Below, piece by piece: positions 4,362 to 61,645 of a stretch of 64,000 bases of DNA. The notes beneath the pieces were generated by a model. It searched no databases. It saw nothing but the letters and a program-made list of their open reading frames with translations, and was not told the DNA's origin. Made by a program: the position numbers and the translations under genes. Each line of letters starts with the position of its first letter. Positions within the stretch are counted from its first letter, which is position 1. The stretch is from the NCBI RefSeq assembly GCF_026210795.1, contig NC_089433.1:372001-436000 (forward strand), written 5' to 3'. Source of the stretch: Rhizophagus irregularis (Eukaryota).

Positions 4362-6482
4362 TTACTGTACATACCGAATAAACAATTCATTTTCAATATC
4401 TTTAATTGGATATGATACATTAATTTCACCATCATTTTCTTGATATGATTTATACCATTTTAATGCTTCTATTTTATTTTTTTGAGTACCTTCACCATTT
4501 TTATAACATTCGGCTAATTCATATTGAGATGGTATAAATCCATTTTCAGCAGATTTTTTAAATAATTCGAATGCTATAATTGAATTATTTTGTGCATTAT
4601 AATTGAATTGATGATAACAAGATGCAAGAAAATGTAAAGCTATATTTAATCCATTATTAACAGCATGTTGACAAAATTCCAATGATCTTTCATTATAATT
4701 TTTTTCAACGGTATAACCAAGATAATAATAAAATCCAACCTCATAATATCCATTGAAATCATTTTGTTGACTTGATCTCATATACCATTCGAATGCTATA
4801 TTTATACTTTTATTTACTCCAAAACCTCTATTATAAAAGACTCCTAACATTAATTCATAATATTGTAAAGTAGGATTATTTATAAGGTAATTAAAAATTT
4901 CTTTTGATCTTGATTCATATCTTTCTAATACTTTATTAAAATCAAAAGTTTTTATCCATCCAATCTTATTTCTTTTTAAATAATTTTGAATAATTTCTTC
5001 TAAATCATCTCTTAAACCTTTTTCATATTCACTAATACTAGATGATATCATTGATGGTGTACCTAAATATATAATAAAATATTAATAAGAATTTAATCAA
5101 ATACTGTATGATTGATTGAATGATTGAATGATTGAATGATTGATTTTACTTACTAATTTGACTAGTAAATTGCGCTAAATTCAGTTCGTTAATATTATCA
5201 TCAATTGTTAAGTATGATCGTGATTGTAAATTATTTTCATTATTCAATATATTAGAACTATTAGAATTTGTTTCATCACTATAAATATTTATTTTAATAT
5301 CAACCGTAGAATTATCTTTAGAAAAACGTTTCAATGTATCGTAAACTTCTTCAGCATTCGGTCTTAAATCTGGATCATTATCCCAACATTTCTGATAAAG
5401 TTCAACATATTCTAATGGTGTATCATTCATTGGTGATTCTCTATATCCATTTGCAATCCTATAACATAAAGTAGCTCTTGAAATACTTGGAAAAGGAGGA
5501 TACCCGCTTGTTATTTCCCATAAAAGAATTCCTAAACTATAAATATCAGATCTTTTGTCTCTTACATAATTATCAACAACATAACATTGCGGTTCAATAT
5601 ATTCTAACATCCCCCAAGCTATTGAATTTGATGTAATTTCACCCGTTAAATGTTTAGATAACCCAAGGTCCGCAATCATCAAATTATTATTATCAACTAA
5701 TATATTCTTTGCATGCTATAAAAAAAAAAATAAATAAATAATTTTAGATATGAATTAAAAAATATTAAAAAAATTTTATTAACAGTTGAGGATAAATAAA
5801 TTTATTACCAAATCTCTATGAATAATTTTTCTAGAATGTAAACATTTCAATCCACAAGTAATTTCTGATGCCATCCGAATTTTATCATCCCAATTAAGTG
5901 ACTTAAAATTATTTTTTAAATATTCTCTTAAATTTCCACGATTAGCGTATTGTAACACCATTATATAATTATTTGTTATTGGTTCTAGTATATTATAAAG
6001 ATAAAAATAAAATAAATTAATATGTTATTTAATACATTTGAAGTGGTTACAGAAATGTCAAAAATAATCCAACCTTTTGTAATTCCTAAAAATCGATTTA
6101 TGTTCGGATGGAAATTAACTTTTCTTAAATTTCTTAACTAAGTTAACGTACGTTAATGGATTATTTATTTTGAACAATAATAATGAAATCGTCAATATAA
6201 TAAATCATGATGATGAGAATAAATCTTATTATAATAAATCTTGAATATGAACAATATATACTGTACCTCTTTAAGAAATCTATTCATATTATCTTGATTG
6301 ACTGAATTATATTCGATAATTTTTAATGCTATTTTAATACCACAACTTTTCCAATCAGCTTTATTCACAATTCCGAACGCTCCTTCGCCAACTTTTTCAA
6401 AATTACTAAATTCATCATAATCAAAATAATTTATGTCATCATCCCTTATTTTCATATCGATCCACTCGCATAATGAAGTCAT
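4362..6482 (-). CDS. TKL-like protein kinase fused to C-terminal Sel1-like repeats (5 exons: 6482-6267, 6137-6074, 5984-5809, 5715-5154, 5062-4362)
   Basis: Spliced GT-AG model keeps frame: GEGAFG, IALK, IHRDL|HAKN, DLG, YIEPQ, SDIYSLG, CW..DP..RP, then Sel1 motifs (AFEWY..S, SQYELAECYKNGEGT.KN..EALKWY). Confidence 0.9.
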
Positions 6483-8280: not shown

Positions 8281-10614
8281 TTTTTGAAGATATTTTTTTT
8301 TTTGTATGAAAAATAAAAACGTAAACAAGTTTTTTGAGGGAAAAAAAAGTACTTTACGATAAATATATATAGAAGACCATTTTATTTGTGATATGAAGGC
8401 GAAACATGCATGAAACAACGATTATAAGTAATAGATTTAATCATTTCTTTCTTTTTTTGACAAAAATATTGATGGGGTACAAAGTATATATGGATTAATG
8501 AGCACAGAAAAGCTTCCTTTTGTTAATTTAGTTAAAACAATTTACATTGTAATTATATATAAAGCGATAATGGATGATACTTGTTTAAAAAGGTATTTTG
8601 CGTAATATAAACTAAATAAAGGGGAATTGCGTTTTAGATGTAGTAGAGGAATCTTTGCTTTAAACTAACGCTAACTAAAAAATTTGATTAACCGGAAGAT
8701 CCGATCTTGATCATCATTTTTTTTTTTTGGTATAACGAATGAAAAAAAAGAATCAATCATTATTCGCCAAAAGAAATGGTATAATATATAATTGTTCAAC
8801 AATATGAAAATTTGATTAACACGAAAAGGAGGAAAATGTCATTTAAGGAAATTGGTTCATTAAATATACAATGAACATACCTTATTAATAAATCTAAAAC
8901 ATACAGTACTTCCGAAATTAAGCATCCTTAATGTTGCCCAAAGTCATCATAAGTGCCGATCAAAGTTGGCTTAATGCGATTATGCGACCCGAGTACTCAA
9001 TATTCAGGGGATGCTTAATTTTGGTTATACGAACTGAAAAACAAACGTAAAGTTAGGTTAATCCTTATTATACAAGTACGAAAATTATTGGTTCCTTTAT
9101 TTGGATATCGAATGTTTCAAGATTTACATTCGAAATTACTAAATAGGTTTAAATGATTTGATCGTTGTGTGATTTACATGAAACCTAAGGAGGTTGAAAT
9201 TGCCCCAAAAAAAAATAATTTATGCATGTTAATTTCATAGGTTCATTTAATATTTGCATAAATAAAGTAAATAGGTCACAACAACCACGATACTATTTGT
9301 AAAATGATTTATTGGATAACAACTAATTTTTTTGGGTAAAGTTTCTGATAATAGGGTACAATGATAAGATCCGAAAAGGAAATTTGCGTGTATCATGTTA
9401 CACATTTTACGGGTTTCGTGGGTTCCATCAAGCCGGAATATTTATACTTAAAATAGTAATTTTTTCTTGATCGTCAAAAAAAATTATAAAATGTATTTTT
9501 AATTTATAAAATATTGTACGGTAAGCATGTCGCAATAAATTAGACGCGAACAAAGATTTTATTCTGTATGAATTATTGTTTAATAATGACACAATATATA
9601 AGACAAACATGCAATTCATTAATCATAATTTCATAAAGTTTAACGAATTTTTTAAAAAAGGTTAACCCCCGAAATTTATTCCCAATTTTTAATTAAGTCA
9701 TGTGATTCTTTGTCTATTTATAATATTTATTTAGACATGGCTCCTTTGTTATAGTTTATAACTGTTTACCTTTTTTAAATAATTTAATGAGGTTAATACA
9801 AGGATATTATGGATTTTGTTTGAATATATATTTTCTTTCTGATAAAACATAAAAATTAATTTTCTTTAAAATATTTAATTTACTTTTTAGTGCATAATAG
9901 ATAAATTCTTTCTGCATATTAATAATTTTTTCTTTTTTTTACTTTGAATATTTTTTTTAAATATTAAATATATACAATATATTCACGACTAGTTTAAAGA
10001 TGTTAAGCCAAATTTTATTTTTTTTTATGTACGACTAATTTTTGTACCCGTGTAATATTTGTAATATTTTGTACGGTATGAAATAATGAAATCAACGTAT
10101 TAAATCGAGTAGATAAATCGAATAAATCGAAAATTCACATGCTTATCTTTTTTATACAAGGAGTTATTTCATGTGTCAAAATCTTTACGTTCAAACTTAC
10201 ATATTTATAATTTCTAATTACCAGGGATGAAATTAACAAAGTCCGAACGTCCCGTTGAATTGGCAATTATCCAATTGTAAAGACAGTATCTTTTACCGCA
10301 GTAGGTATCACCGTGATACCGTGATATTTATAGTATAAATAGGACAGAGGCGTTAAGGTATGACGCAAAATTCCATTTATACTCGTTCATTTTAAAAGAA
10401 TAAAAGGAAATCAAAATCATACTTCATTATAATGTAATAGAATTGTGAAACAAAAATAAGAGTGTCATTTGCTTTGTGTATAACACATATAATATATTGT
10501 TTGATAATACTTATTTTCATTATTATACTGTAAATACCCAATTCTTTCCTTTTATTGCGTTTTTTTTAAAAAAAACCCCAGTTAATATTTAATAATAAAA
10601 CATAGAATTCTATT

Positions 10615-15194: not shown

Positions 15195-17957
15195 TTAATA
15201 GGTATTAAATGTATTTACCAACTCATTTTGACTTGTCGTGTATTTTTTTTCCCATTTTGAAGCTTCATCCCTATTTTTTTGAGTACCTATACCATCTTTA
15301 TAACATTCAGCTAATTCACGTTGTGATAGTACAAATCCATTTTCAGCAGATTTTTTGTACAATTCAAATGCTTTAACTTGATGTTCTCGCAATAATTGCT
15401 GATTGGTCTCATTCATTTTTCGAATACCATCACCAGATTTGTAACAAGTTGCAAGAGAATATAAAGCTCTATTTAACTTTTCCTTACTCTCATTAACAGC
15501 ACGCTGAAAAAATTCAAATGCTTTGTCACAGTTCTTCACAACACCATTTCCATTATAATAACAATTTCCAGTCTCTAAGATGCCATTATAATTATTTTGT
15601 TTACTTGCATCTATATACCATTTAAAAGCTTTATCCATGTTTTCATTTGTTCCAAACCCCATTTCATGAAATTTTCCAACAATTACTTCATAATTCCGTA
15701 TAGTTTGATTATTATTAAGGCATTTAAAAATTTCTTGTGATTTTGACTCATAATTCTTTAAAACTTTAAAGAAGGAAAAACTTTTTGTTTCTCCAATGCT
15801 ATTATGTTTTAAATAAGCTTCAATAATTTCATCTAATTCATTACGTGTGATTTCTCTTTCAATGTCATTAATGAGAGATTTAATAGATAACGTAGTTTTT
15901 TCCTATTAAATTAAATATAATTTAAGTCAATTACTTTATTTTTTTTTTAAAAAAAAAAGAGTGAAAACAAAGGAAATTATATTTACCATTATGGTATCCT
16001 TGATATTATATGTTGGATTATACTCGCCATTATTTTCTAAAAACAGTTTGTACCATTTTAAGGCTTCTGTTTTATTCTGTTGTGTACCTTTACCTATTTC
16101 ATAAAATGTGGCTAATTTATATTGAGATGGTATAAATCCTTTTTCGGCAGATTTCTTATATAATTTGAACGCCTCATCAAATCTATTTTTTTCATTATCA
16201 AATTCATAACTAATTGCAAGAAAATATGTAGCTATATTTAACCCTTCATCAGAAGCAAGTTTATATGATTTTAACGCTTCTTTAAGATTTTTTTTAATGC
16301 TATATCCATAATTATAACAGTATCCAAGTTCAAATTGACCATTCAAATTATTTAATTTACTTGCCTTTTTATACCACTCAAAAGCAACAATTTCATTTTT
16401 ATATACACCAAATCCATCTTCATAAAAATATCCAACCATTACTTCATATTGTCGTATAGTTTGATTATTGATAAGATTACCAAAAATTTTATTTGATATC
16501 GATTTGTGCTTTTCTAAAATTTTTGGAAAAGAAAAATCTCTTGACCATCCAATATTATTTCTTTTTAAATAAGAATCAATGATTTCGTCTGTAGCATTAA
16601 TTATATTTTCTCTCTCATCCTCGTAAATTTTGGGCGTCAAAAATGAGGGTGATTCACCTAATGATATATAAATATTAGTAATATATTTTCAATGTTTTTT
16701 TTTAAAAAAAATAAATAAATATAACAAATATACTTACCTAATGGATTTTCAAGATATGATAATTTAAGATTGTTTTGGTCATATAAAATTTGACTATTTT
16801 TATCACTGTTATTTTTTTTAATCACATCTTCCATAATTTTAGGAAGATTATTATATTGATCCTCCAATATATTAAAAACTTCAATAACAGTTGGTCTTAA
16901 TTTTGGGTCATCATCCCAGCATCTCTGGTAGAGATTAACGTAAACTTTAGGTGTATTAATTATTGGTTCTTCTCTATATCCATTGGCAATTTTAAAAGTT
17001 AAAGCGGTATCCTTATGAGGTGAATTCTTAGAAAATGGAGGATATCCACTCGTTATTTCCCATAAGAGAACACCCAAACTATAGATATCAGACTTTAAAT
17101 CTCTGACATAATCACCATATTTATAACATTGTGGTTCGACATATGCCGGCATTCCATAAACTACCGAATTTGACGAACCATCGATGGTTAATTCCTTTGC
17201 TAATCCAAGATCCGCAATCATTAAAGTACCATTGTGGACCAGTATATTTTTTGCGTGCTATAAAAATAGAACAAAAATAATTTAATTTAAAACGTGAAAA
17301 TAATATGAAATAAATAAATTAGTATATATTACCAGATCTCTATGAATAATCTTTGTGGAGTGTAAGTACTTCAATCCACAAGCAATTTCTGATGCCATCC
17401 GAATTTTATCACTCCATTGGAGCGGCTTAAAATTGATTTTTAAATATTCTCTTAAATTTCCTTGATTCGCATATTGTAAGACCATTACATAATTGTTTGA
17501 TGTCGGATCTAAAAAAGATTTAGTTAATATCAGAACAAGATAACAGAAACTAACGAAAATTATATTTACCCCTTGTTATTCCATAAAATTGATTTATATT
17601 TGGATGAAAGCCAACTTTTCTTAAGATCTTTAACTATTTTTTTTTTTTTTTAAAAAAAAAATAATATAAGTTGTTTTTATTATTAAAACTTATTATAATG
17701 TAATATTAAAAAATTACCTCCTTAATAAATTTTTCCATATTACTTTTCACATTATTTTCATTATTTATTTCACTAATTGCTTTATTATTTGTAAGTATCT
17801 TTAACGCTATCTTAATTTTACCACTATTCCAATCAGCTCTGTTCACAATTCCGAACGCTCCTTCGCCAACTTTTTCCAAATTAATGAATTCATCATATCT
17901 AAAAAAATTTATATCTTCTTCTTCTATTTTCTTGTCAATCCATTCACTCGACGTCAT
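15195..17957 (-). CDS. TKL-like protein kinase with two tandem Sel1-repeat modules (6 exons: 17957-17718, 17633-17570, 17508-17333, 17257-16738, 16657-15987, 15902-15195)
   Basis: Same motifs and same first intron positions as the 4362-6482 gene (GEGAFG, IALK, IHRDL|HAKN, DLG, YVEPQ); two Sel1-bearing exons follow. Confidence 0.9.
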
Positions 17958-19849: not shown

Positions 19850-20305
19850 TCGAAATATTGGTTTGAAAATTTTTATTGTCGGGATCGTCAGGTACTCGGG
19901 TTATTCGGCTAGTCGGGTTATTAGAAAAGATAACACGGGTATACTTTACAGCTGATTTCATGAGACCTGGGACAAAATAAATTTTTGAACCCAACCGCCG
20001 ACCCGCCGATCCGGTTCAGTTGTTATTTATTTTACAAATCAAACTATCAAATCTGGATCACGTACCCAACTAAAAATACCAGATCGGCGGGTCGGCGGTC
20101 GGGTTTTAAAATTTATTTTGTCCCAGGTCTCATGAAATCAGCTGTAAAGCCTGTAATATAACATAATTACATTTATATAGTACATACAATTATAAATTAT
20201 ACTACGCCATCATATATATATATGTCAGTGTTATATATCTTTTTTAATAACCCGACTACCGACAATCCCGACAATAAAAATTTTCAAGTGTCCACTATAT
20301 TTCGA
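19850..20305. mobile_element. Nested inverted-repeat elements (outer MITE ~19850-20305; inner MITE ~19945-20148)
   Basis: Inner ~70-bp TIRs tttacagctgatttcatgagacctgggacaaaataaattt... match ...aaatttattttgtcccaggtctcatgaaatcagctgtaaa; outer TIRs gaaaatttttattgtcgggat match atcccgacaataaaaattttc. Confidence 0.75.
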
Positions 20306-20904: not shown

Positions 20905-23900
20905 ATGTTTTCTCAGAATATACTTTTGACAAGAAATAATATTCTGAAATATTTAGAAACCAATTTTACAAATTGGACCAGTGGTAACGAAAAAATCAAT
21001 AATTTTATTCAAAAAAGGCAATTAGGAATTATTGTCAATGATGCTGATGTGGTGCTTGAATGGATACCATACAATCAGTTTAACGAAATTAAAGAGATAG
21101 GCGGAAATGGCCTTATAACAGTATATTCAGCAATATGGAAGGATGGTCCATTATATGAGAAAATTGATATGTGGAGTGAAAGTTATACAAGAGATTCAAA
21201 TAAAGAAGTTGCTTTAAAATATTATCATAATTCGCAAGAATCCATTGATTATTTAATAAATGAGGTATGAAATGTCTTTAAATATTTAAATTTTTTTTTT
21301 TTATTAATTAATATATTTACAGTTTCTTTTATTTAGGCTAAAAAATATCCAGCAAAATATGAATCATTTCAAGTATTACATGGAATATCTCAAAATCCAG
21401 ATACAAATGATTATATTTTAGTTCTAAATATTTCCATAAACGTAACAAATTGGATAAGTGGAGATGAAAAAATTGATGATTACATTCTGGAAAGGCAATT
21501 AAAAATTAATAACTATGATGATATAGTGCTTGAATGGGTACCATACAATCAGTTTAATGAAATTAAAATGATAGGCAAAAATGGTCTTATAACGGTATAT
21601 TCAGCAATATGGAAGGATGGTCCATTATACAAAGAGGATATATGGAGTAATTACATAAAAGATTCAAATAAAAAAGTTGCTTTAAGATGTTTACATAATT
21701 CACAAACATCCATTGTTTCTTTAATAAATGAGGTATAAAATTTCTTTAATATTTATAATATATATTTTTGGTGATGATCACCGGTGACTGAAATTATGAC
21801 AATCGACCAGCATTAAAAAAATATAGTGCCGGTAAAATTGATAATTCCGGCCAACGGTGATGATCACCCCTAAAAAAATTATTTTGAATTAGTATATTTA
21901 CATTTACAATTCCTTTTTATTTATGTTTAGGCTAAAAAATATCCAACCAAATATAGGGCATTTCAAGTATTGTATGGTATATCTCAAAATCCTGATACAA
22001 ATGATTATATTTTTGTTCAAAATAATTATACATGGAAAAGTGGAAATGAAAAAATTGATAATTTCATTCAAGAAAGGCAATTAAAAATTAATAACTATGA
22101 TGATATAATGTTTGAATGGATACCATACAGTCAGTTTAATGAAATTAAAGAAACAGGCAAAAATGGTCTTATAACAGTATATTCAGCAATATGGAAGGAT
22201 GGTCCATTATGTTTTAATAAACAATATGAAAATTATACAAGAGATTCAAATATAAAAGTTACTTTAAAATGTTTATATAATTCACAAGAATCCATTGATT
22301 CTTTAATAAATGAGGTATGAAAATTCTTTAAATGATTAATATTTTTTTTAATTAGTATGCTTACAATCTCTTTTATTTATATTTAGTCTAAAAAATATCA
22401 AATTAAACATAAAACTTTTCAAGTATTATATGGAATATCTCAAAATCCTATTACAAATGATTATATTTTTGTTCAAAATAATTATACATGGATAAATGGA
22501 AATGAAAAAATTGATGATTTTATTCAAGAAAGGCAATTAAAAATTAATAATGATAATGATCTAATTTTTGAATGGATACCATACAGTCAGTTTAATGAAA
22601 TTAAAGAAACAGGTAAAAATGGTCTTATAACAGTATATTCAGCAATATGGAAGGATGGTCCATTATACAAAGAGGATATATGGAGTAATTACATAAGAGA
22701 TTCAAATAAAGAAGTTGCTTTAAAATATTTACATAATTCACAAGAATCTATCGATTCTTTGATTAATGAGGTATGAAATTTCTTTAATGCTTAAATATTT
22801 TTTTTAAAATTACTTATATACAATCTCTTTTATTTATATTTAGGCTAAAAAGTATCCAATAAAATATAAATTATTTCAAGTATTATATGGAATATCCCAA
22901 AATCCTGATACAGGAAATTATATTTTAGTTCTTACATGGGCAAGTGGAAATGAAAAAATAGATGATTTTATTCGAAAAATGCAATTAAAAATAAACAATA
23001 ATGATAATTTAATTCTTGAATGGGTACCATATAGTCAGTTTAATGAAATTAAAGAAATAGGTAAAAATGATCTTATAACAGTATATTTAGCAATATGGAA
23101 GGATGGTCCATTAAATTGCAGTAAGTTGCATCATAAATATGCAAGAGAATCAAATAAAGGAGTTGCTTTAATATGTTTACATAATTCACAAAAATCCATT
23201 GATTATTTGATTAATGAGGTATGTAATTTCTTTAAATGTTTAAATAATTTTTAATTAATATATTTACAATCTCTTTTAATTACATTTAGGCTAAAAAGTA
23301 TCCAACAAGACATAAAGCATTTCAAGTATTGTATGGAATATCTCAAAATCCTGATACAGGAGATTATATTTTTATTCAAAATAATTATATATGGACAAGT
23401 GGTAATGAAAAAATTGATAATTTTATTCGAGAAAAGCAGTTAAAAACTAATAATAACAATGATTTAGTATTTGAATGGATTCCATACAGTCAGTTTAATG
23501 AAATTAAAAAAACAGGTAAAAATGACCAAATAACAGTATATTCAGCAATATGGAAAGATGGTCCATTATGTAAAAAGAGTATATGGAGTAATAATTATTC
23601 TAGAGATTCAAGTAAAGAAGTCGCTTTAAAATGTTTATATAATTCACAAGAACCCATTGATTCTTTGATTAATGAGGTATGAAATTCTTAGACATTTAAT
23701 ATTTTTTTTAATTAATATATTTACAATCTTATTTGATTATATTTAGGTTGAAAAATATCTAATAAAACGTAATGCATTTCAAGTATTGTATGGAATATCT
23801 CAAAACCCTAATACAAAAGATTATATTCTTGTTCTTATATGGGCAAGTGGAAATGAAATAATTGATGATTTCATTCAAGAAAGTCAATTAAAAATTAATA

Positions 23901-26900
23901 ACTATAATGATATAGTATTTGAATGGATACCATACAATCAGTTTAATGAAATTAAAGAGACATGTAAAAATGGCTTTATAACGGTATATTCAGCAATATG
24001 GAAGAATGGTCCATTATGCAAGATGGATAGATTAAGTAATAATTATACTAGAGATTCAAATAAAGAAGTTGCTTTAAAATATTTGCAAAATTTACAAGAA
24101 TCTGTTGATTCTTTAATAAATGAGGTATGAGATTTCTTTGAATATTTAAATACTTTTTTTTAATTAGTATATTTACAATCTCTTTCATTTTAATATATTT
24201 AGGCTAAAAAATATCCAACAAAACATAATGCACTACAAGTATTGTACGGAATATCTCAAAATCCTGATACAGAAGATTATATTTTAGTTCTTATCTGGAC
24301 AAGTGGAAATGGAAAAATTGATGATTTTATTCAAGAAAGGCAATTAAAAACTAAAAATTATTATGATATAGTGCTTGAATGGATACCATACAACCAGTTT
24401 AATGAAATTAAAGAAACAGGCAAAAATAGTCTTATTACAGTATATTCAGCAATATGGAAGGATGGTCCAAAATACAAAAATAATAGATGGAGTAATTACA
24501 TGAGAGATTCAAATAAAAAAGTTGCCTTAAAATGCTTGCATAATTCACAAGAATCCATTGATTCTTTAATAAATGAGGTATGAAATTTCTTAAATACTTT
24601 TTTTAATTAATATATATATATTTACAAGCTCTTTTATTTATATTTAGGCTAAAAAATATCCAACAACACATATAGCATTTCAAGTATTGTATGGAATATC
24701 TCAAAATTCTAATACAGGAGATTATATTTTGGTTCTTATATGGACAAGTGGAAATGAAAAAATTGATGATTTCATTCAAGAAAGGCAATTAAAAACTAAA
24801 AATTATAGCGATATAGTAATTGAATGGATACCATACAATCAGTTTAATGAAATTGAAGAAACAGGCAAAAATGGCCTTATAACAGTATATTCAGCAATAT
24901 GGAAGGATGGTCCAAAATACAAAAAGGATAGATGGAGTAATTATATGAGAGATTCAAATAAAAAAGTTGCTTTGAATGTTTATATAATTCACAAAAATCT
25001 ATTGATTCTTTAATAAATGAAGTATGAAATTTTTTTAAATATTTAAATACTTCTTTAATTATATATTTACAATTTCTTTTATCTACATTTAGACCGAAAA
25101 ATACCTAATAAAACATAATGCATTGCAAGCATTATATGGAATATCTCAAAATCCTGATACAGGAAATTATATTTTAGTTCTTATTTGGACGAGTGGAAGT
25201 GAAAAAATTGATGATTTCATTCAAGAAAGGCAATTAAAAGTTTATAATGATAATGATATAGTGTTTGAATGGATACCATACAATCAGTTTAATGAAATTG
25301 AAGAAACAGGCAAAAATGGTTGTATAACAGTATATTCAGCAATATGGAAGGATGGTCCATTTCATTATAATAATTGGACAAAAAAATATGATAAATTTGA
25401 AAGTAATTCAAATAAAAAAGTTGCTTTAAAATATTTATATAATTCAAAAGAATTCATTGATGTTTTAATAAATGAGGTATTAAACTTCTTTAAATATTTA
25501 AATACTCCTTTTATTAATTAATATATTTACAATCTTCTTTATTTATAATTAGGCTAAAAAATATCCAACAAAACATAATGCATTTCAAGCATTGTATGGA
25601 ATATCTCAAAATTTAGTTACAGGAAATTATATTTTGGTTCAAAAAGATTTTATAAACTTTGCAAATTGGACGAGTAAAAATGAAAAAATTGATGATTTCA
25701 TTCAAGAAAGGCAATTAAAAGTTAATAATTATAATGATATAGTGTTTGAATGGATACCATACAATCAGTTTAATGAAGTTGAAGAGACAGGCAAAAATAG
25801 TCTTATAACAGTATATTCAGCAATATGGAAGGATGGTCCATATTGGCATGATGATGAAAATTATACTAGAATTTCAAATAAAAAAGTTGCTTTAAAATGC
25901 TTACATAATTCACAAGAATCCATTGATTCTTTCATAAATGAGGTATAAATTTCTTTAAATACTTAAATATTTTTTAATTAGTGTATTTACAGTCTCTTTA
26001 TTTATATTTAGGCTAAAAAATATCCAACAAAATATAATGAACTACAAGCATTGTATGGAATATCTCAAAATCCTGATACAGGAGATTATATTTTAATTCT
26101 TATCTGGACAAGTGGAAATGGAAAAATTGATGATTTCATTCTAGAAAGTCAATTAAATATTAATGATTATAATAATATGGTGCTTGAATGGATACCATAT
26201 AATCAGTTTAATGAAATTGAAGAAATAGGCAAAAATGGTCTTACAATAGCATATTCAGCAATATGGAAGGATGGTCCATTATACAAAGAGGATATATGGA
26301 GTAATTACATAAGAGATTCAAATAAAGAAGTTGCTTTAAAATATTTACATAATTCACAAGAATCTGTTGATTCTTTAATAAATGAGGTATGAAATTTCTT
26401 TAAATATTTAAATACCTTTTTTTAATTAATATTTACAATCTCTTTTATTTATATTTATTTAGACTAAAAAATATCTAACAAAATATAAAGCATTTCAAAT
26501 ATTAAATGGAATATCTCAAAATCCTGATACAGGAGATTATATTTTTGTTCAAAATAATTATATATGGACAAGTGGAAATAAAAAAATTGATGATCTGATT
26601 TATGAAATGCAATTGAAAATGAATGATCATAGTGATGTAGTATTTGAATGGATACCATATAATCAATTTAATAATATTAAGAAAATAGGAAATGGTGGCT
26701 TTGCTATAGTATATTCTGCAAATTGGAAAAACGGTCCATTAGAATATTATACAAATAAAAGTATATACAAAAGGAATCCAAATATAATGGTTGCCTTAAA
26801 ATGTTTGCATAATTCACAAAATATTAGCAACAAATTTTTAAATGAGGTATTATTTTTTTTAAAAATCATTTATAATAAAAAAATTCTTATTTAAACATAA

Positions 26901-27799
26901 TGAAATAATTATTTCTTTATTTATATATTTAATAGGTTAAAAAATACTCTATAAATAAAAGGAGTAATATTCTTAATGTATATGGGATATCTCAAAATCC
27001 AGATTCAAAAGAGTATATTATGGTTCTCCAATATGCAAAGGAGGGCAATTTTAATCATTGGATAAATAAAAACTATAAATATTTTATTTGGAGGGATAAA
27101 CTATCTGCACTGCTTAATATTATTAATGGTCTTAAAGAAATTCATCAAAAAAGTATAGTTCATCGTGATTTTCATACAGGAAATATATTATTTTTAAGTA
27201 ATATATATAATTTTGGTAATTGTATATCAGTTTCAGATATGGGATTATGCGGAGAAGTTGGTAATATGGATGAAACTAAAATATATGGAGTTATGCCTTA
27301 TGTGGCTCCTGAAGTATTAAGAAAAAAGCTTTATACCCAGGAATCAGATATTTATAGTTTTGGTATGATAATGTATTTTGTAGCAACTGGAAGACAACCT
27401 TTTTATGACCGTGCACATGATCATCAACTTGCATTGGATATTTGTAAAGGAGTTAGACCTGAAATATGTGAACCAGAAGCACCAAGATGTTATATTGATT
27501 TAATGAATAAGTGTTGGGATTTAAATCCAAATAATAGACCAAATGTTCTTGAAGTAAATGAATTAATTGTGTCATTTCATAAGTCATATGGAAGGGATTT
27601 TTACATAATAGAAAATGAAGAAATTGAAATGCAATTCAAGAAAGCAGAAGAATATAGAAAAGCAAATCTTTCATTTATTAAAAATTACCAAATAGCTACT
27701 CATCCACAAGCTATTTACACATCTCGATTACTTAATTCATTTACAGGAGATCTTTCAGAATATGATGATAATTCTCAATGTTTAGATCAAGCAATCTAA
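20905..27799 (+). CDS. Giant TKL-like kinase preceded by 12 tandem degenerate kinase N-lobe modules; 14 exons (~20905-21264, 21337-21732, 21931-22314, 22387-22770, 22844-23218, 23290-23676, 23747-24124, 24203-24577, 24648-25021 [frameshifted], 25093-25476, 25553-25942, 26012-26386, 26463-26846, 26936-27799)
   Basis: Every exon but the last ends ...aatga(g/a)|gtat and every exon but the first starts after ..tag. Exons 2-13 have lengths divisible by 3 except exon 9 (374 nt). The last module has GNGGFAIVY and VALK, and the last exon has HRDFHTGN, DMG, VAPE, SDIYSFG. About 1810 aa if exon 9 is skipped. True start codon uncertain. Confidence 0.85.
21770..21872. mobile_element. ~100-bp MITE inserted in intron 2 of the repeat kinase
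   Basis: ggtgatgatcacc at both ends; this intron is ~200 bp versus ~70 bp for its sisters; a reverse-complement copy lies at ~63054-63144. Confidence 0.8.
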
Positions 27800-36820: not shown

Positions 36821-38274
36821 TTAATTTATCTGTGGAACGTGTACAAACTTATCTGCTTTTGATAGTTTTCTTTTCCTATAAAAGTATATAAGAACTGAAG
36901 ACCCTACCAAGGCAAGCACGATTGATGAAATTATAATTCCTATAATAACATTTTTGTTTTGAGTACTAGGTTTCGGATTAGGATCAAACTCACTGACCCA
37001 CTTGTAATTAGATTTATCGCTCGTGTCTAAAATAAACGTTTCGTTTGATAATTGAGTATTATCTCTTCCAAAAAGCACGATCATATGATCACCAACCAAA
37101 GTAGCCGTATGGTAACAACGTGGAAGTGGTGGATCTGTGGCACTTATGACATTCGCTTTTGACCATGTATAAACAGTTTGTGATGTATCTAATATCACAA
37201 GATCATCATTAACGGCAGCAATATCAGCATCACAGCCTCCATACACGATAATACGACCATCTTGAGCTATATAATTTAGAGAACAATGTAATATATTACC
37301 CATTTTATAATTTAATTCACAAAAAAAAGATTAAATATATAATTACTCAGAACAGCAGAATGGCATGCACGACGTGCAGGCGAATAACCAGTGGTAGTCT
37401 GAAATATAATATATCTTATAAGAAAATGAACGATTAGCTTTTAAAAAAATTAAAAGAAACACCTTACCATTGAAGTCCATTTATTATCATATGTATTATA
37501 CAAAGGTAACTATTTTTTTTTAAAAAAAACAATGATCAGTAAATATACAATTTAGACTCTCAATTAATCAATTAAACGGTGCTGATTTACCTTTAACATA
37601 TCTGCTAGTGAATTTACGCCGTTATCATGTATGGTACCACCTATATAAACAATATTACCGTTTCTTAACAAAGTACCCGTATGATCGAACCTTTGTTCTG
37701 GAGCATTAACTATTTCCCACACTAGCGTCGATGCATCCAAAATATCCAAATTATAATTATATTTGTTTTCTGGTGAGGAAGGTAACATTCCACCAAATCT
37801 ATACATTTTTCTAGTTTTAACATCACAAACGGTCTGGGTCTGGCTGTGAAAATTAGATAGAGGTGGATTGGTGGTCGCAATGCTGTTCCATTGTTTTGAA
37901 CTTATCCCATAAATGTAGACGAAGTTTGCTATAAATGTATTGTTTTCTCCAATATACAAAATTAGAGAATCATCAAGTCCACAATTTGAGAACGCGCTCC
38001 ATGCATGATCTGGAAGACCTTGCGAACTAAGTTCCTTCCAAGGTAATGGTTCTCCTACTTTAATTACAATGGGTTGCTTAACGTCTAAATAATAAAATTC
38101 ATTGGAAAATGTTAATCCATCAAAATTATTCGGGTTTTTGGGTTGGAGACCACCTGTAATATATATTTTAGAATCTGTAAATACGGCGCTGGGACCCCAA
38201 ACTGTCTTAGGCGTGAAAGCCAAAGTGAACTCATTGAGGTACAGGCAAATAACGATCAAGCCGAGGAAAAGCAT
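36821..38274 (-). CDS. Type I membrane Kelch/galactose-oxidase-like beta-propeller protein (4 exons: 38274-37591, 37509-37468, 37398-37347, 37266-36821)
   Basis: Signal peptide MLFLGLIVICLYLNEFTLA; Kelch motifs KIYITGG, MYRFGG, RFDHTGTL..IVYIGG, RACHSAV..IIVYGG, RCYHTATL; C-terminal TM helix followed by RKRK. Confidence 0.9.
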
Positions 38275-39363
38275 TATCAATAATCATAAGGGAGGCGAAA
38301 AATACACCTGGCATTTTTTTAGTTCGTCTAAATACCGAAAATAAATGAATTCTAGTATAGAAAATGTCATGATCTATTACGTAATGTATCCTTTCTTCTA
38401 CAGCCTATTGCTAATTATGATAATATCCTTGCACTACAAATTCTAGTATTTCCATATATGGCATGATTGCCAAGCATTACGAAAATAATCTAAATAATAA
38501 AATAATAAAATAATAAAAATACTTTGATTAAAAAAAGTATAAACATATATAGGATAGAAAAGGATTTTCGGAATGGGAATTCCGGACATAGCCACAATTT
38601 ATATTCGGCTAGGAAAACGGAAACCGCTCAAGCCTTTCGCGTTGCATAACTCACAGTTACGTGTCATTTATTTATTTGACATATGACATATTTCAGGGGT
38701 CAAATAGGTAGTGTTACGTAAATCGTGATACATATTCAAAAAAAGAAAATAGAATTGTCGATTGTGACAGGGACAAAAACGGGGGGTTAAACCAAAATTT
38801 TGCTAGTTCTGTACAGTAAATAGTCCTTCGCTAACGCTTGATGATTAGGCGTTCAGTTGTGTTACGGATATCGGCAAAATTTTTCCGTTTTAACATAACT
38901 TATTCAATTTATCCTTTTTTAAACTTATCTTCAATTTTTGGTGATTTCATATACGATGAACATGTTTATAGAAATTTTCAAAACTGAATTGAGTTTTTTG
39001 AGTTTAAACTATCATACAAATAGTACGAAGTAACTTAGTGGCACCTATTAGTACAATTAAAGAATTATTTGGCGATGTACAAATCAAATCGCTCACTTTC
39101 GTGCTAACAATAACTTGTTCCATAATATCGTCGACACGTTTCTTCATTTATTCAGGAACCGACTAGAATATTTTTTTGGAAATTACCCTGAACTCTAACT
39201 ATGATTAACATTGCACTTTACATGTCATGTATCGTGTCGTATCCATCGAATACTTATTAATTTCTTCGCTTTGGAAAGCAACAAAAATAAATATATTCTG
39301 GTTATAAAAACAGCTCAACTAAGAGACCGTGACCCTAAGGTCACAGTTGGCTTATTTCATCAT

Positions 39364-41937: not shown

Positions 41938-42834
41938 TAAAGTTGCCTGCCAAAACTCTACAGGCTATTGTCGAAATGTCGAAACTAAAACCTGTAGAAA
42001 TGCCGAAATGCCGAAATAGTTTCGACATGTCAAAATTGTCAAAACCTAAAAATATTACGTTTCACGTAATAACTCGGCATCCAATGATCGTAGAAAGATG
42101 CACCATAGCTCGTTGGAATCGTCTCATAACGACGAGTCAAATGGTGGTTAGATCGTCTTTCTACGATCACTGGATGCCGAGATATTGAGCGAAACGTCAA
42201 AAATCAGCATTTTGTATTTTGCAATACTGCGCCATTTGACGTTTCGCGTAATAACTCGACGTCCAATGATCGTAGAAAGATGCACCATAGCTCGTTTGAA
42301 TCGTCTCATAACGACGAGTCGAATTGGTGTTAAATCGTCTTTTTACGATCATTGGATGCCGAGATAATAGACGAAACGTCAAACGGCGCAGTAGCGCAAA
42401 ATACAAAATGCCGATTTTTGACGTTTCGCTCAATATCTCGGCATCCAGTGATCGTAGAAAGACGATCTAACCACCATTCGACTCGTCGTTATGAGACGAT
42501 TCCAACGAGCTATGGTGCATCTTTCTACGATCATTGGATGCCGAGATATTAAGCGAAACGTCAAAAATCGGCATTTTGTATTTTGCGCTACTGCGCCGTT
42601 TGACGTTTCGTCTATTATCTCGGCATCCAGTGATCGTAGAAAGACGATTTAACTACCATTCGACTCGTCGTTATGAGACGATTCCAACGAGCTATGGTGC
42701 ATCTTTCTACGATCATTGGACGTCGAGTTATTACGTGAAATGTAATATTTTTAGGTTTCGACAATTTTGACATGTCAAAATAGTTTTGACAATTTTGACA
42801 TGCCGAAACTCCCTAATTTCGGCAGGCAACTTTA
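41938..42834. mobile_element. Young foldback-like hAT-type non-autonomous element
   Basis: TIR taaagttgcctgcc / ggcaggcaacttta; perfect 8-bp TSD ATTATAAC (41930-41937, 42835-42842); interior made of ~180-bp units, two forward and two reversed. Confidence 0.9.
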
Positions 42835-44606: not shown

Positions 44607-46063
44607 TTACTTTACTTTATAACGTGGTACCTTTTTAATTTCAAATTTCTTAAATTTAATATCTAATTTCATATATTTTTCAATAAGTATTTTTATATCA
44701 TTCATATTTTTAATGTAATAAATATCGTCAGGAATATAAATAATCAGTGAAAGTGATCTTTGTGATACACGATCTTGCCAGTTTATAAAAAATTCCTCTA
44801 AATCTTTTAAATCTTCATAAAGGCTATCCATCGACCATACCGGCCATGCAAAAGAATAATCTAAAATTAAGCCATAAAAATATTCTTGTGAATAATTTGC
44901 CAAAATGTTGTAGAAGTTAAAGACATAATTACAAGCAAAAGGATATTCAATAATTTCTAAATATTGACAATTACTTAGAATTAGTTTCAATGTTTCTTCT
45001 TCTTCCTTCTTAATTTGAATGCGTAAAATTTTAAGATTTGGACAAAATTCAGCTAAAACTAAATTTAATGATCTATTATAGTAATGATATATATAAAACT
45101 CTGTTAGATTTTTTCCATTAATTTCCAAAAAGTTAATTAGCATTTCAACATCAGAAAAATTATTTTTATATATAATCTTCAGAATCTTCAATTGTGAAAA
45201 ATAAGTATCCTGCAATTGATAAAATATATGATTAGCACTACATTCTTGATATAAAATGAGTTCTTGTAAATTTTTGAACATAGCTATAAATGGAAAGGAT
45301 ATTTTACAATTCTTTAATGTTAACTTTGTTAATGTTAAAGAATGCTTAGTTAATGAACAGATGAAAAAATATTGAAGATTTGCAATTTTAAAATTATTCT
45401 GTGAAAAAATCAAATCCAATAATCCATTTGAAATCTCAGACTTAAAATTTATAGTTAATGATTGCAGATTATGAGATACTTGAGAAATAAATTCAGAAAA
45501 AATATCTGAATCACATTTAAATTCTACAAGGTTAGCTAAATGAAAATGAATTATTGCTAAAGATAATACATCAATATCTTTTGATTGTGATTGTGATTGT
45601 GATTGTGATTCGTTACACTTCAAAACTTTTAATGATGAAATTTGATTCATAATCATTTTTAATTTGTAATAACAAATTTCGTATGTCTTCTGAAATAATT
45701 GATTGTTGATTTTTAAGTGCAAGTATAATCATGTCATCAATTTTATAAACTGAGATAACTTTGCAAAATGATGCATAATTAATCAATGGAGGTTTCTGAA
45801 TTGGAATGGTTATATTAAATCCATTCTATGTAAAATTTTTCTGATTCCTTAGGAAGACAAGCAATTAAAGTATTAATAATTGATAATGATATATATGGCT
45901 TTTCACCAAAATCATAAAACTTCCAAACATTTCTCCATAAAATTCTAACTGCAACTTCACAACAAAGATGGTTAACTAATAGACATGAATATAAGGTAAT
46001 TTTATCATCATATAAATATTCAAATATATAATTAAGGCAATCAGTAGTTAGTTGACGAGGCAT
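44607..46063 (-). pseudogene. F-box / RNI-like leucine-rich repeat gene with frameshifts
   Basis: F-box-like MPRQLTTDCLNYIFEYL..LYSCLLVN.LCC...V.ILW; the KPPLINYASF segment is in a different frame; LRR-like ORF 45722-44607 (FCPNLK.L); at least two frame breaks near 45830 and 45660. Confidence 0.8.
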
Positions 46064-52715: not shown

Positions 52716-52829
52716 GAACAACATCAGGAGGTTAAATCATGCGAGTAATAGTGTAGAATCATCAAATATGTATATACTCGAAAATTTACATCTTGAAAAA
52801 ATCTGTAGATTTACGGATTTGTGTAATGT

Positions 52830-53330
52830 ACACTTAAAAATATAGTCTCGATAATTTTTATTTTAAAAATTCGCATAAATTTTACTTAAATGGATAGTTT
52901 TGATAACTCACTTTACTAAAAATATTTGTAAATATACTATTTTGTATAGCTTACACTTAAATATATAGTCTTGATAATTCTTATATTAGAAATTTGTATA
53001 AATTTTACTTAAATGGGTAGTTTTGATAACTCACTTTACTAAAAATATTTGTAAATATACTATTTTGTATAACTTACACTTAAATATATAGTCTCGATAA
53101 TTTTTATATTAGAAATTTTGTATAAATTTTACTTAATGGGTAGTTTTGATAACTCACTTTACTAAAAATATTCGTAAATATACTATTTTGTATAACTTAC
53201 ACTTAAATATATAGTCTCGATAATTTTTATTTTAAAAATTCGCACAAATTTTACTTAAATGGGTAATTTTGATAACTCACTTTACTAAAAATATTCGTAA
53301 ATATACTATTTTGTATAACTTACGCTTAAT
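52830..53330. repeat. ~122-bp tandem repeat, about 4 copies
   Basis: tacacttaaa.atatagtctcgataatttt...gataactcactttactaaaaatatt recurs at ~52830, 52952, 53075, 53197. Confidence 0.9.
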
Positions 53331-53765
53331 ATAATTATCATTTTAAAACTTTATTAGTACAATATATAATACTAAATATTTGAACCAAGAAATGATAACA
53401 TATATACAATTTAGAAAATATTTCTATTCATCAAAAATTCATTTTCTTTATGAAATCTTGGTATAATATGAACACTGTGTGTTATAGAATCTAATGGTAC
53501 TACATCATAACTTTTTAACATTAATAGCCGAGAACATCCATAAAATCAAAGCAGGATTGGACCTAAAGAGAAACAATGTTACATAAATATTTAATAATAA
53601 CTGGAAGAAATAACTATATAGTGCAATTATATAATATAAATGATATAATTGTCAGTAATGATATCATAATTATTTAATACAGTACAGTCATTTAATAATA
53701 GTACATAGATTAAATATTAAACTGAAATTCATATATATTAATTTGTATCATAATAAAATTAGGAT

Positions 53766-56827: not shown

Positions 56828-57300
56828 GCTCAATTAACTTTTCATAATAAGAAAATTTTTTTTTTTATGCAAGAGGCGAAGTTTTACGTAGGCATGCATA
56901 TCTATATATGTGTTTCAAAATAAAAAAGCTCAATTAACTTTTCACAAAAAATTTTTTTTTTTTATACAAGGGACGAAGTTTTACGTACAGACATGCATAT
57001 TTATTTGTTTCAAAATAAAGAAAGCTTAATTAACTTTTCACAATAAAAAATATTTTTTTATTTTATGCAAGAGGCGAAATTTTACGTACTGTACAGCCAT
57101 GCACATTTAATTTGTGTTTCAAATAAAAAATCTCAATTAACTTTTCATAATAAAAAAAATTTTTTTTTTATGCAGGAGGCGAAATTTTACGTACGGCCAT
57201 GAATATTTGAAATGTGTTTCAATAAAAAAACTTAATTAGCTTTTCACAATAAAAAAAAAAATTCTTTTTTTATGTACGTACAACCATGCATATTTACATG
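56828..57300. repeat. ~100-bp tandem repeat, about 5 copies, directly upstream of the channel gene
   Basis: ctcaattaacttttca...ttttatgcaagaggcgaa.ttttacgta...catgcat recurs five times. Confidence 0.9.
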
Positions 57301-57397
57301 TATTTTAAATGAAAAAAAAGTATATAATCACAAATGGACGATATAAAAAAAATAATTTCTTTGGTAATAAATTTATATATTTATAAACGACTACCAA

Positions 57398-60300: not shown

Positions 60301-61645
60301 TATTTTACAATATTTTAAGAAAATAAAATTAATTATATAATATTTTAATATTGTAGATATAATTGCTTATGTCCTTTCAATTTACACTTCTATTTATTGG
60401 CTTCAAACAAATGATAAGAACAATAATATGTATCTAATTCAATTGCTTTCTTTTTCATGCTTATTTTTGGATATAAAATTTTTGTTATTTTTTAGAGCAT
60501 TTGAATATTTTGGTGTATATTTTGCAATAATTATTAGTGTTGGAAAAAAGATTTTTTCTTTTTTATTAGTCTTATTCATTATTATAATAAGTTTTGCACA
60601 TGCATTTTATATTTTATTATCACCAAAATCTAAATTTTCACTTGATCAATATAATACAAATAGTAATGATGATCCAAATAATCCTTGGAATTTAGCTCCT
60701 AGTTATAGTCAAGTTGATAATAATGGAAATATAAATTCCAATCCACTTATGATGATTCAAATTCCTGATGGAAATACAAACATGTTTATAGATATTAAAA
60801 CTTCCCTTTTTGCTATATATTTATTTTTAATAGGTATATTTAAATTTTTCATAATTATGTAAATATACATAAATATTTTCTAATATTTTTAAGCAATTCT
60901 TCTTATCAATAGGTGATTCAAGTGCATTATCCAATTGGACGTATACAGAAAATCCATCAATTTCAGTATTGATTGTTTTGTTTTCCCTTTTAGTTGTTGT
61001 ATATCTTATGAACTTGTTAATTGGATTACTCAATATAGCAATTGAAGAAGATAATAATAGAGTCTCATATTTGATGCAAAAGGCAGAGGTAAATAATATT
61101 ATCATTAATCATTCCATTTCTGTAAATATACTAATATATCTCGATTTTATTTTTAAAGATTTTGGCTGAGATTGAGTTATTTTACCTATTACCACATCAG
61201 AAACGTTGGCATACATGGTTTCCTGAAGTAATGTATGTAATTTTACTTTTAAAAAAACTTTGTTATGGTCTTATTAATTATTCGAATTTGTTTTTTAAGA
61301 CATTATTATGCCGATGTTGATAAAGCTCGAGTAGAAATTAAAAGATTGATTAAAGAGGGTGAATGGGATACTAAGGAATTCACAGAGTTGCGGAAAAATT
61401 TATTCGAAGTACTTCAAATTGAATATAATTCTATTGACAATGAGGCAATATTGGAGCAATTAAAAATTGACAATGAGGTAATATTGGAGAAATTAAAATC
61501 TCATGAGAAATTATTGAAAGAAAATAATAATGAGTTGGAGAAATTAAAATCTCATGATGAAAAATTAGATAAATTAGATAAATTAGATAAATTAGATAAA
61601 TTAGAGGAATTAGAGAAATTATTGAAAGAAATACGCGCAAAATAA
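57398..61645 (+). CDS. TRP-like ion channel (8 exons: 57398-57779, 57851-58221, 58299-58425, 58496-60280, 60357-60833, 60913-61088, 61159-61232, 61300-61645)
   Basis: In-frame splicing; WD-like N-terminus; EALINFKW pre-S1; S4-like FLLFFRAFEYFG; S5 SFAHAFYILL; S6 YLMNLLIGLLN; TRP-box-like QKAEILAEIELF; coiled-coil tail. Confidence 0.88.

What the first reader, a model, noticed from the sequence alone, without database searches (positions are those of the whole stretch)
20905..27799. Kinase with a 12-unit array of N-lobe-only modules built from symmetric cassette exons
Seen: the ~125-aa module (WxSGNEKIDDFI..RQL..EWIPY.QFNEI..GKNGLITVYSAIWKDGP..VALK.L.NS..LINE / .KKY..YGISQNPDT.DYI) occurs 12 times with no C-lobe, followed by one canonical N-lobe and one C-lobe with HRD/DMG/APE intact. 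All 13 introns are phase 0 at the same position. Established: these motifs correspond to kinase beta1-beta5 and alphaC, and an N-lobe alone cannot catalyse. Inference: half a kinase fold has been repurposed as a tandem binding or decoy repeat, and any exon can be skipped, lost or duplicated in frame. That would give a modular sensor kinase analogous to repeat-variable fungal NLRs or tandem-kinase immune proteins. Similar proteins may already sit in Glomeromycota annotations as generic kinases; I do not know of a description of this architecture.
Basis: partly seen in the sequence, partly recalled or inferred. Interest (0 to 1): 0.88.

Follow-up and report, generated by a model that had tools for sequence, protein, structure and literature searches.

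The report
Kinase N-lobes strung into repeat arrays
A mycorrhizal fungus gene strings twelve copies of the front half of a protein kinase ahead of one complete kinase, a layout shared by a large unnamed gene family across these fungi; the copies have lost their ATP-gripping loop and likely act as a shuffled array of binding baits, though no partner is known and one exon of this copy is frameshifted.

Summary
The array is real: 14 exons, 13 GT-AG introns at one site in helix alphaC, 12 N-lobe-only modules, then one intact kinase. Four public annotations work around that spot; another allele and a spliced contig are intact there. Exons are out of register with modules, so skipping makes hybrids. 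The gene matches Rhizophagus irregularis records and belongs to a large family also in R. clarus, Glomus cerebriforme, Acaulospora and Gigaspora. Four of 13 junctions are seen spliced. Modules are predicted to fold as kinase N-lobes, are under purifying selection (omega 0.30), have lost the GxGGF loop (8 of 379 keep it; 66 of 66 catalytic lobes do) and swap segments by gene conversion. Positive selection was not found. The closest precedent is the single effector-binding partial kinase duplication of wheat RWT4/WTK3; ten literature searches found no N-lobe arrays. The architecture is solid and apparently undescribed; a sensor/decoy role is the best guess (about 0.45), untested.

The parts
20905..21264 (+). 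Exon 1: start, N-terminal helix, beta1-beta3 and front of alphaC of module 1
   Evidence: 120/120 identical to P0121
21337..21732 (+). Exon 2: back of module 1, front of module 2
21931..22314 (+). Exon 3 (repeat)
   Evidence: P0014/P0015 carry an exon 2/3 hybrid, one unit shorter
22387..22770 (+). Exon 4 (repeat)
   Evidence: junction to exon 5 spliced in X18 and X19
22844..23218 (+). Exon 5 (repeat)
   Evidence: junction to exon 6 spliced in X20
23290..23676 (+). Exon 6 (repeat)
23747..24124 (+). Exon 7 (repeat)
24203..24577 (+). Exon 8 (repeat)
24648..25021 (+). Exon 9 (repeat), 374 nt, frameshifted by a one-base deletion near 24975; public annotations use a cryptic GT at 24978
   Evidence: junction to exon 10 spliced with one extra base in X20
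25093..25476 (+). Exon 10 (repeat)
25553..25942 (+). Exon 11 (repeat)
26012..26386 (+). Exon 12: back of module 11, front of module 12
26463..26846 (+). Exon 13: beta4-beta5 of module 12, then front of the catalytic N-lobe (GNGGF 26688-26702, VALK 26790-26801)
   Evidence: junction to exon 14 spliced in X18 and X19
26936..27799 (+). Exon 14: beta4-beta5, hinge and C-lobe (HRDFHTGN 27161-27184, DMG 27236-27244, APE 27305-27313), stop
   Evidence: Pfam PF07714
22635..22749 (+). 115-bp tract identical to 26251-26365 (exon 4 vs exon 12), covering beta2, the hypervariable beta2-beta3 insert and beta3: gene-conversion-like
   Evidence: global permutation p 0.0002
21595..21658 (+). 64-bp tract identical to 22633-22696 (exon 2 vs exon 4)
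   Evidence: global p 0.008

Best explanation
This is a spliced fungal tyrosine-kinase-like gene with twelve non-catalytic copies of the kinase front half ahead of one complete kinase; the copies are predicted to fold as separate N-lobes and likely serve as a variable array of binding baits whose engagement would switch the terminal kinase. Shown: the architecture; splicing of 4 of 13 junctions; loss of the glycine-rich loop in repeats with the fold core kept; purifying selection; gene conversion of the most variable segment; 2 to 13 full N-lobes per family member; spread over Glomerales and Diversisporales. Predicted: the N-lobe fold of each module, and possibly fixed packing between neighbours. 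Inferred: the unit arose by intragenic duplication of everything in front of the kinase hinge (zinc-finger-like motif, helix, N-lobe, with its alphaC intron), more than once, and the Rhizophagus sub-family of this gene later lost the zinc-finger-like motif. Because the intron lies inside alphaC, unit gain, loss or skipping keeps the frame but makes hybrid modules. Guessed, by analogy to wheat RWT4/WTK3: the baits catch foreign proteins that target the fungus's very large kinase set (endobacterial, viral or non-self fungal). In this allele the full product is not encoded; it would need exon 9 skipping or a cryptic donor, otherwise the product is kinase-less or degraded.
For: Exon structure and motifs. 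Spliced junctions E4-5, E5-6, E9-10 and E13-14 with GT..AG ends and no mismatches. AlphaFold model of modules 11-12 plus kinase: pLDDT 79, pTM 0.70. Model of a kinase-less three-module relative P0153: pLDDT 81, pTM 0.66; best structural matches RIPK2 (Z 10.3, rmsd 2.2, 86 aligned) and MLKL (Z 10.1, rmsd 2.1, 86 aligned), all 50 listed rows kinase-fold proteins. Of 274 proteins examined, 66 had a C-lobe and 2 or more full N-lobes: GxF/Y loop in 66 of 66 terminal lobes and 8 of 379 repeats; core residues such as EW, W-x-x-G and YG as conserved in repeats as in terminal lobes. Framework omega 0.30 (likelihood ratio 40.2 against omega 1); 0 to 2 of 2000 neutral runs kept 10 exons free of stops. 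Loops change 3 times and the beta2-beta3 insert 5 times faster per codon than the framework. Conversion tracts. 21 of 29 listed OCT59_ genes lie on one 4.9-Mb contig, tags 008295-008672. Precedent: RWT4 KDup / WTK3 PKF is an N-terminal partial kinase copy needed for effector binding (passages).
Against: No ligand or partner is known. No positive selection: loops omega 0.39, below 1 (p 0.002); insert 0.43, not different from 1. The beta2-beta3 insert is about as variable in catalytic lobes as in repeats. The excess of allele differences in repeats (23/1439 vs 1/327) is not significant, p 0.11. No record joins a repeat exon to the kinase exons, junction E12-13 was not seen, and no skipped isoform was seen. 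This allele is frameshifted, and the annotated alleles P0014/P0015 and P0123 also look damaged, which fits a decaying copy. The beta3 Lys (331 of 379) and alphaC Glu (266 of 379) are often kept, so a residual conformational or nucleotide role is not excluded. None of 8 neighbouring ORFs scanned was an NLR domain.
Confidence: 0.45

Rival explanations
1. The repeats are an internal regulatory or scaffold rod. They keep N-lobe docking surfaces and clamp, space or oligomerise the fungus's own kinases (autoinhibition or dominant-negative control of the expanded kinase family), with no role in sensing foreign molecules.
For: Purifying rather than positive selection. The N-terminal helix and outer core are as conserved in repeats as in catalytic lobes. 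Linkers between modules are 0-8 residues and pTM is 0.66-0.70, hinting at a rigid array (inference). N-lobe surfaces mediate allosteric kinase dimers in several kinase families (recalled).
Against: A fixed internal job does not explain 2-13 copies per gene, dozens of clustered paralogues, conversion of the most variable segment, or repeated origins.
Confidence: 0.27
2. The arrays are a tolerated by-product of a duplication-prone kinase family. An in-frame unit is easily amplified by unequal crossing over, and selection only removes unfolding or truncating changes to protect the kinase at the end; the modules do nothing.
For: AM fungal kinases are very numerous, often methylated and near MULE transposons (passages of 10.1101/2021.03.30.436303). 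This allele is frameshifted and other alleles look broken. Many listed family members lack an annotated intact C-lobe. Repeats arose more than once.
Against: Framework omega of 0.30 is low for passengers; 43 of 44 sampled Acaulospora and Gigaspora repeats form one old group apart from their own catalytic lobes (SH-aLRT 94.6), so modules persisted across fungal families; ATP-loop residues were lost selectively while surface and core motifs stayed. Deleting useless units would be frame-neutral, yet arrays are kept.
Confidence: 0.23
3. The array is an assembly or annotation artefact, or a run of separate dead kinase fragments rather than one gene.
For: No single read or contig spans the locus; exon 9 is frameshifted.
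Against: Units differ by 9-24% in DNA. The same exons in the same order stand in several separate public records and in diverged alleles. Neighbouring repeat exons are spliced together in RNA contigs. The layout recurs in five species.
Confidence: 0.05

Closest known systems
Wheat RWT4/WTK3 integrated partial kinase duplication (KDup, PKF); bioRxiv 10.1101/2024.04.30.591956 and 10.1101/2024.08.30.610185 (passages read)
   Same: An N-terminal, non-catalytic copy of the front part of the protein's own kinase, made by intragenic duplication and placed before an active kinase.
   Different: One copy there, 12 here (up to 12 full ones in the family sample). RWT4 has two whole kinase domains, a known effector and an NLR partner; here one C-lobe and no known partner. 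PKF dN/dS is about 0.96; here 0.30-0.43. Plant versus fungus, presumably independent origins (not tested on a tree).
Expanded tyrosine-kinase-like (PF07714) family of arbuscular mycorrhizal fungi (passages of PMC6123716 and 10.1101/2021.03.30.436303)
   Same: The terminal kinase is an ordinary member (PF07714 184.6 bits), sits among kinase-Sel1 and Kelch genes, and is annotated only as 'kinase-like domain-containing'.
   Different: The passages seen count kinase genes by Pfam and say nothing of N-lobe repeats; Pfam has no model for the module (12 of 12 repeat exons without a hit above cut-off).
Fungal NLRs with shuffled WD/TPR/ANK sensor repeats (passages of review PMC10197012)
   Same: Tandem repeats exchanged by recombination within a gene, variable copy number, gene clusters.
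   Different: No NACHT or NB-ARC domain; the repeat is half a kinase; repeats are 58-82% identical in protein rather than near-identical; positive selection not detected; output is a C-terminal kinase.
Kinase-pseudokinase tandems such as JAK (JH2-JH1) and MLKL/RIPK folds (structure hits)
   Same: A non-catalytic kinase-fold element in front of or beside an active kinase; same N-lobe fold.
   Different: Those pseudokinases are whole two-lobed domains in single copy; no solved structure matched the module by sequence (0 hits at E 10).

Membership tests
Tyrosine-kinase-like protein kinase (PF07714) | Pfam match above the curated cut-off | tested here: met
   P0121 residues 1578-1843, 184.6 bits vs 23.1
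Tyrosine-kinase-like protein kinase (PF07714) | Glycine-rich loop, beta3 Lys, alphaC Glu, HRD, DxG, APE in one domain | tested here: met
   GNGGF, VALK, NE, HRDFHTGN, DMG, APE in exons 13-14
Tyrosine-kinase-like protein kinase (PF07714) | Phosphotransfer activity | not testable with these tools
   needs an assay
Plant tandem kinase proteins (RWT4/WTK3 type) | Two complete kinase or pseudokinase domains | tested here: not met
   one C-lobe only; not filed as a member
Plant tandem kinase proteins (RWT4/WTK3 type) | N-terminal partial duplication of the kinase front | tested here: met
   12 copies, N-lobe fold predicted
Plant tandem kinase proteins (RWT4/WTK3 type) | Partial copy binds a foreign effector | not testable with these tools
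   no candidate ligand known
Plant tandem kinase proteins (RWT4/WTK3 type) | Linked NLR executor | tested here: inconclusive
   8 neighbouring ORFs of the 36 listed at 110 aa or more were scanned, none an NLR domain; intron-rich genes may be missed and no genome was held
Fungal NLR with variable sensor repeats | NACHT or NB-ARC nucleotide-binding domain | tested here: not met
   absent from P0121; not filed as a member
Fungal NLR with variable sensor repeats | Repeat exchange by recombination within the gene | tested here: met
   2 of 55 exon pairs with significant identical tracts; hybrid exon in P0014 (DNA not seen)
Fungal NLR with variable sensor repeats | Positive selection on exposed repeat positions | tested here: inconclusive
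   region-level omega 0.39 and 0.43 on 10 exons; no site model, little power, insert near saturation

The most novel reading that the evidence does not exclude
Arbuscular mycorrhizal fungi have repeatedly turned the kinase N-lobe into a tandem-repeat domain, a new kind of repeat protein, and use dozens of such array kinases per genome as a recombining immune-receptor repertoire: the decoy N-lobes mimic the fungus's own kinases, trap proteins from endobacteria, viruses or rival fungi that target them, and trigger the terminal kinase. This would be a fungal, many-copy convergence on the plant KDup principle and a partial answer to why these fungi carry some 2000 kinases.
Probability: 0.3. Interest if true: 0.9.

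Novelty: new variant of a known kind. Interest (0 to 1): 0.72.

Why it matters
The two-lobed kinase fold is normally treated as one unit. Here its front half is an independent, selected, tandemly repeated domain across at least two fungal orders, unseen by Pfam. The purpose of the huge kinase expansion in arbuscular mycorrhizal fungi is an open question; this gives a defined sub-family, a countable unit and sharp tests (what binds the modules, whether they gate the kinase, how arrays differ between strains and nuclei). If the decoy reading holds, it is a convergent immune design shared with cereal tandem kinases.

Tried and rejected
No genome was held for this window, so copies per genome could not be counted directly. 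Complex prediction of module 11 with the catalytic domain gave 'no answer', score 0.00, no evidence either way. Sequence search of solved structures with the exon profile: 0 hits. Pfam on single repeat exons: nothing above cut-off; BCS1_N, KAsynt_C_assoc and similar whole-protein hits have no stretch that passes alone and were set aside as summed repeat noise. ESM Atlas: hits under 0.9, mostly Mucoromycota kinase or hypothetical clusters, leads only, no structure held. The run search listed no holder on record as RNA; RNA status rests on spliced junctions. Long 'joints' between distant exons have short sides, non-GT-AG ends or depths far above the locus and were rejected as paralogue cross-matches, not skipping. 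Nei-Gojobori counting gave an apparent insert dN/dS of 2.5 against the gene-wide dS; rejected, because synonymous change is raised there too and the likelihood estimate is 0.43. A single origin of all repeats was rejected (AU p 0.0006, 48 vs 40 rows, 124 columns). The frameshift as an assembly slip was rejected because separate records work around the same base. Earlier scan findings: none relevant. Occurrence outside Glomeromycota was not tested: names were looked up for only 20 of the 150 listed representatives (of 2758 hits), all Rhizophagus or Acaulospora.
Full report
Observation. The window shows a tandem array of period about 456 nt. Donor and acceptor sites give 14 exons from ATG 20905 to the stop at 27799, with 13 GT..AG introns that all follow the Asn-Glu codons of helix alphaC. 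In protein register there are 13 units running from W-x-SGN through beta5. The first 12 have K/G-N-[G/D/S]-[L/F/Q/C] where a kinase has its glycine-rich loop; the 13th has GNGGF and is followed by a C-lobe with HRDFHTGN, DMG and APE (PF07714 184.6 bits). Repeat exons 2-12 are 79-91% identical in DNA, exon 1 76-79%.

Two corrections. First, exon 9 is 374 nt. One base is missing near 24975; joining all exons stops at residue 1135, and omitting exon 9 gives 1811 open residues. The window's exons match P0121 (EXX61973.1, GBC19340.1, named Rhizophagus irregularis) letter for letter, except that P0121 and P0002 cut exon 9 at a cryptic donor and P0122 splices around it, so separate records share the lesion. 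P0014 reads through intact, and record 26 of run X20 has one more base in that stretch and uses the normal donor. The frameshift is therefore a real allele difference. Second, exons are out of register with modules: each holds the back of one and the front of the next. Gain, loss or skipping keeps the frame but makes a hybrid module, and skipping exon 13 would put a loop-less N-lobe on the C-lobe (inference).

Expression. Laying four contig sets at 99% likeness showed 4 of 13 predicted introns removed exactly: E4-5 and E13-14 in X18 and X19, E5-6 and E9-10 in X20 (E13-14 also). These are short contigs (85-334 letters) from runs only guessed to be RNA. No record links a repeat exon to the kinase exons, and no skipping was seen.

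Family. Exon 8 found 652 longer proteins; the best 120, ranked by score and so biased to long arrays, all carry 4 or more N-lobe hits and are named R. irregularis, R. clarus or Glomus cerebriforme. 21 of the 29 with OCT59_ tags lie on one 4.9-Mb contig. A profile search found 2758 representatives at E 0.001. An Acaulospora query brought 55 proteins, including arrays of up to about 12 units in Acaulospora morrowiae and 2-3 units in Gigaspora rosea. In those, and in many Rhizophagus genes, each unit also carries a CxxC..WCxxC motif, the front of the single-kinase ancestor; the window's sub-family lacks it. In 78 soil metagenome loci, 51 of 58 beta3-alphaC motif ends are followed by GT, and 40 of 78 loci hold two or more units, so the intron site is a family trait.

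Structure. AlphaFold on modules 11-12 plus kinase gave pLDDT 79, pTM 0.70, each module showing an extra helix, beta1-2, a hairpin insert, beta3, alphaC and beta4-5; Foldseek matched JAK and Csk kinases. A kinase-less three-module relative gave pLDDT 81, pTM 0.66 and matched N-lobes of RIPK2 (Z 10.3, rmsd 2.2, 86 residues), MLKL (10.1, 2.1, 86) and TNNI3K (9.6, 3.0, 95). The pTM values hint at ordered packing between modules; I saw no coordinates.

Specialisation. Among 274 proteins, 66 had a full C-lobe and at least two full N-lobes, the last adjacent (alleles and near-duplicates included). The GxF/Y loop is in 66 of 66 terminal lobes and 8 of 379 repeats; beta3 Lys 66 of 66 vs 331 of 379; alphaC Glu 62 of 66 vs 266 of 379. 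Core motifs are equally conserved, and the alphaC-beta4 loop, which normally faces the C-lobe (recalled), becomes highly variable in repeats. Each terminal lobe's nearest neighbour is another gene's terminal lobe (65 of 65), and 332 of 351 repeats are nearest to a repeat (29 gappy modules dropped). Repeats thus copy from repeats. A wider tree puts 43 of 44 Acaulospora and Gigaspora repeats in one group (SH-aLRT 94.6) and Glomerales repeats with Glomerales catalytic lobes; one clade of all repeats is rejected (AU p 0.0006). On 124 columns this suggests, but does not prove, several origins or renewals.

Selection and exchange. On 10 internal exons (1, 9, 13 and 14 left out) the codon model gives omega 0.30 for the framework (p 2e-10 against 1), 0.39 for loops (p 0.002) and 0.43 for the beta2-beta3 insert (not different from 1), with tree lengths 2.3, 7.5 and 12.3 per codon. 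Regions were chosen after seeing the alignment. Neutral simulations kept all 10 exons open in 0 to 2 of 2000 runs. Exons 4 and 12 share a 115-bp identical tract over the insert (global p 0.0002), exons 2 and 4 a 64-bp tract (0.008), out of 55 pairs. P0014/P0015 have a hybrid of exons 2 and 3, one unit shorter; I did not see their DNA, so collapse or mis-annotation is possible. Positive selection was not shown, and the allele excess in repeats is not significant (p 0.11). P0014/P0015 lack the kinase and P0123 lacks most of exon 13 as annotated, so this particular locus may be decaying while the family persists.

Mechanism. Best reading (0.45): a bait array gating a terminal kinase. The support is architectural and by analogy: in wheat RWT4/WTK3 a single N-terminal partial kinase copy binds the effector and is needed for defence (passages of 10.1101/2024.04.30.591956, and 10.1101/2024.08.30.610185), and fungal NLR repeats are shuffled by recombination (passages of PMC10197012). 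Endobacteria of these fungi hold host-derived kinases (passages of PMC10507103), and one such protein, P0324, belongs to this kinase family, which offers a setting but no proof. Rivals: internal regulator or scaffold (0.27), tolerated by-product (0.23), artefact (0.05).

Novelty. The kinase expansion itself is known (passages of PMC6123716, 10.1101/2021.03.30.436303 and PMC8778642). Ten full-text searches (listings and abstract starts only, apart from the seven papers named) found no account of N-lobe arrays, on six phrasings, returned 0 papers. Subscription papers and supplementary files, including those of the AM fungal genome papers, were not seen and could mention the architecture. It is not a plant tandem kinase or an NLR by their defining features, but it may work like the KDup sensor. 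Verdict: new variant of a known kind, interest 0.72.

Noticed in passing
window 21770-21870 (intron 2): About 100-bp insertion with GGTGATGATCACC at both ends; DNA runs show high depth and loose ends at 21770 and 21870, so likely a small high-copy mobile element.
   Followed up: partly
window 19863-20287: Nested inverted repeats upstream of the gene (72-nt arms 94% complementary, plus 27- and 23-nt arms), MITE- or foldback-like.
   Followed up: partly
window 4362-5715 and 15195-17257, minus strand: Two kinase plus Sel1-repeat genes, the common expanded type in these fungi.
   Followed up: partly
window 36821-38283, minus strand: Kelch-repeat gene with a likely C-terminal membrane helix.
   Followed up: partly
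window 57371-61645, plus strand: Multi-exon gene with a weak Ion_trans match and a DEPT-type short repeat, possibly a TRP-like channel.
   Followed up: partly
window 44607-45728, minus strand: 373-aa open frame with leucine-rich appearance and no Pfam hit at E 0.01.
   Followed up: partly
P0324: Protein of a Mycoplasmataceae endobacterium with leucine-rich repeats fused to a single kinase of this same family, zinc-finger-like motif and WTSGN helix included.
   Followed up: partly
P0285, P0286: Gigaspora rosea array kinases annotated behind a long N-terminal region with apparent membrane helices; receptor-like if the gene models are right.
   Followed up: no
P0319, P0311, P0307, P0308: Other layouts in the family: kinase followed by N-lobes, kinase then array then Sel1 repeats, and true tandem kinases; gene models unchecked.
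   Followed up: no
window 42057-42740, 52818-53399, 56828-57257: Non-coding tandem repeats of period 182, 123 and about 99-206 nt.
   Followed up: no
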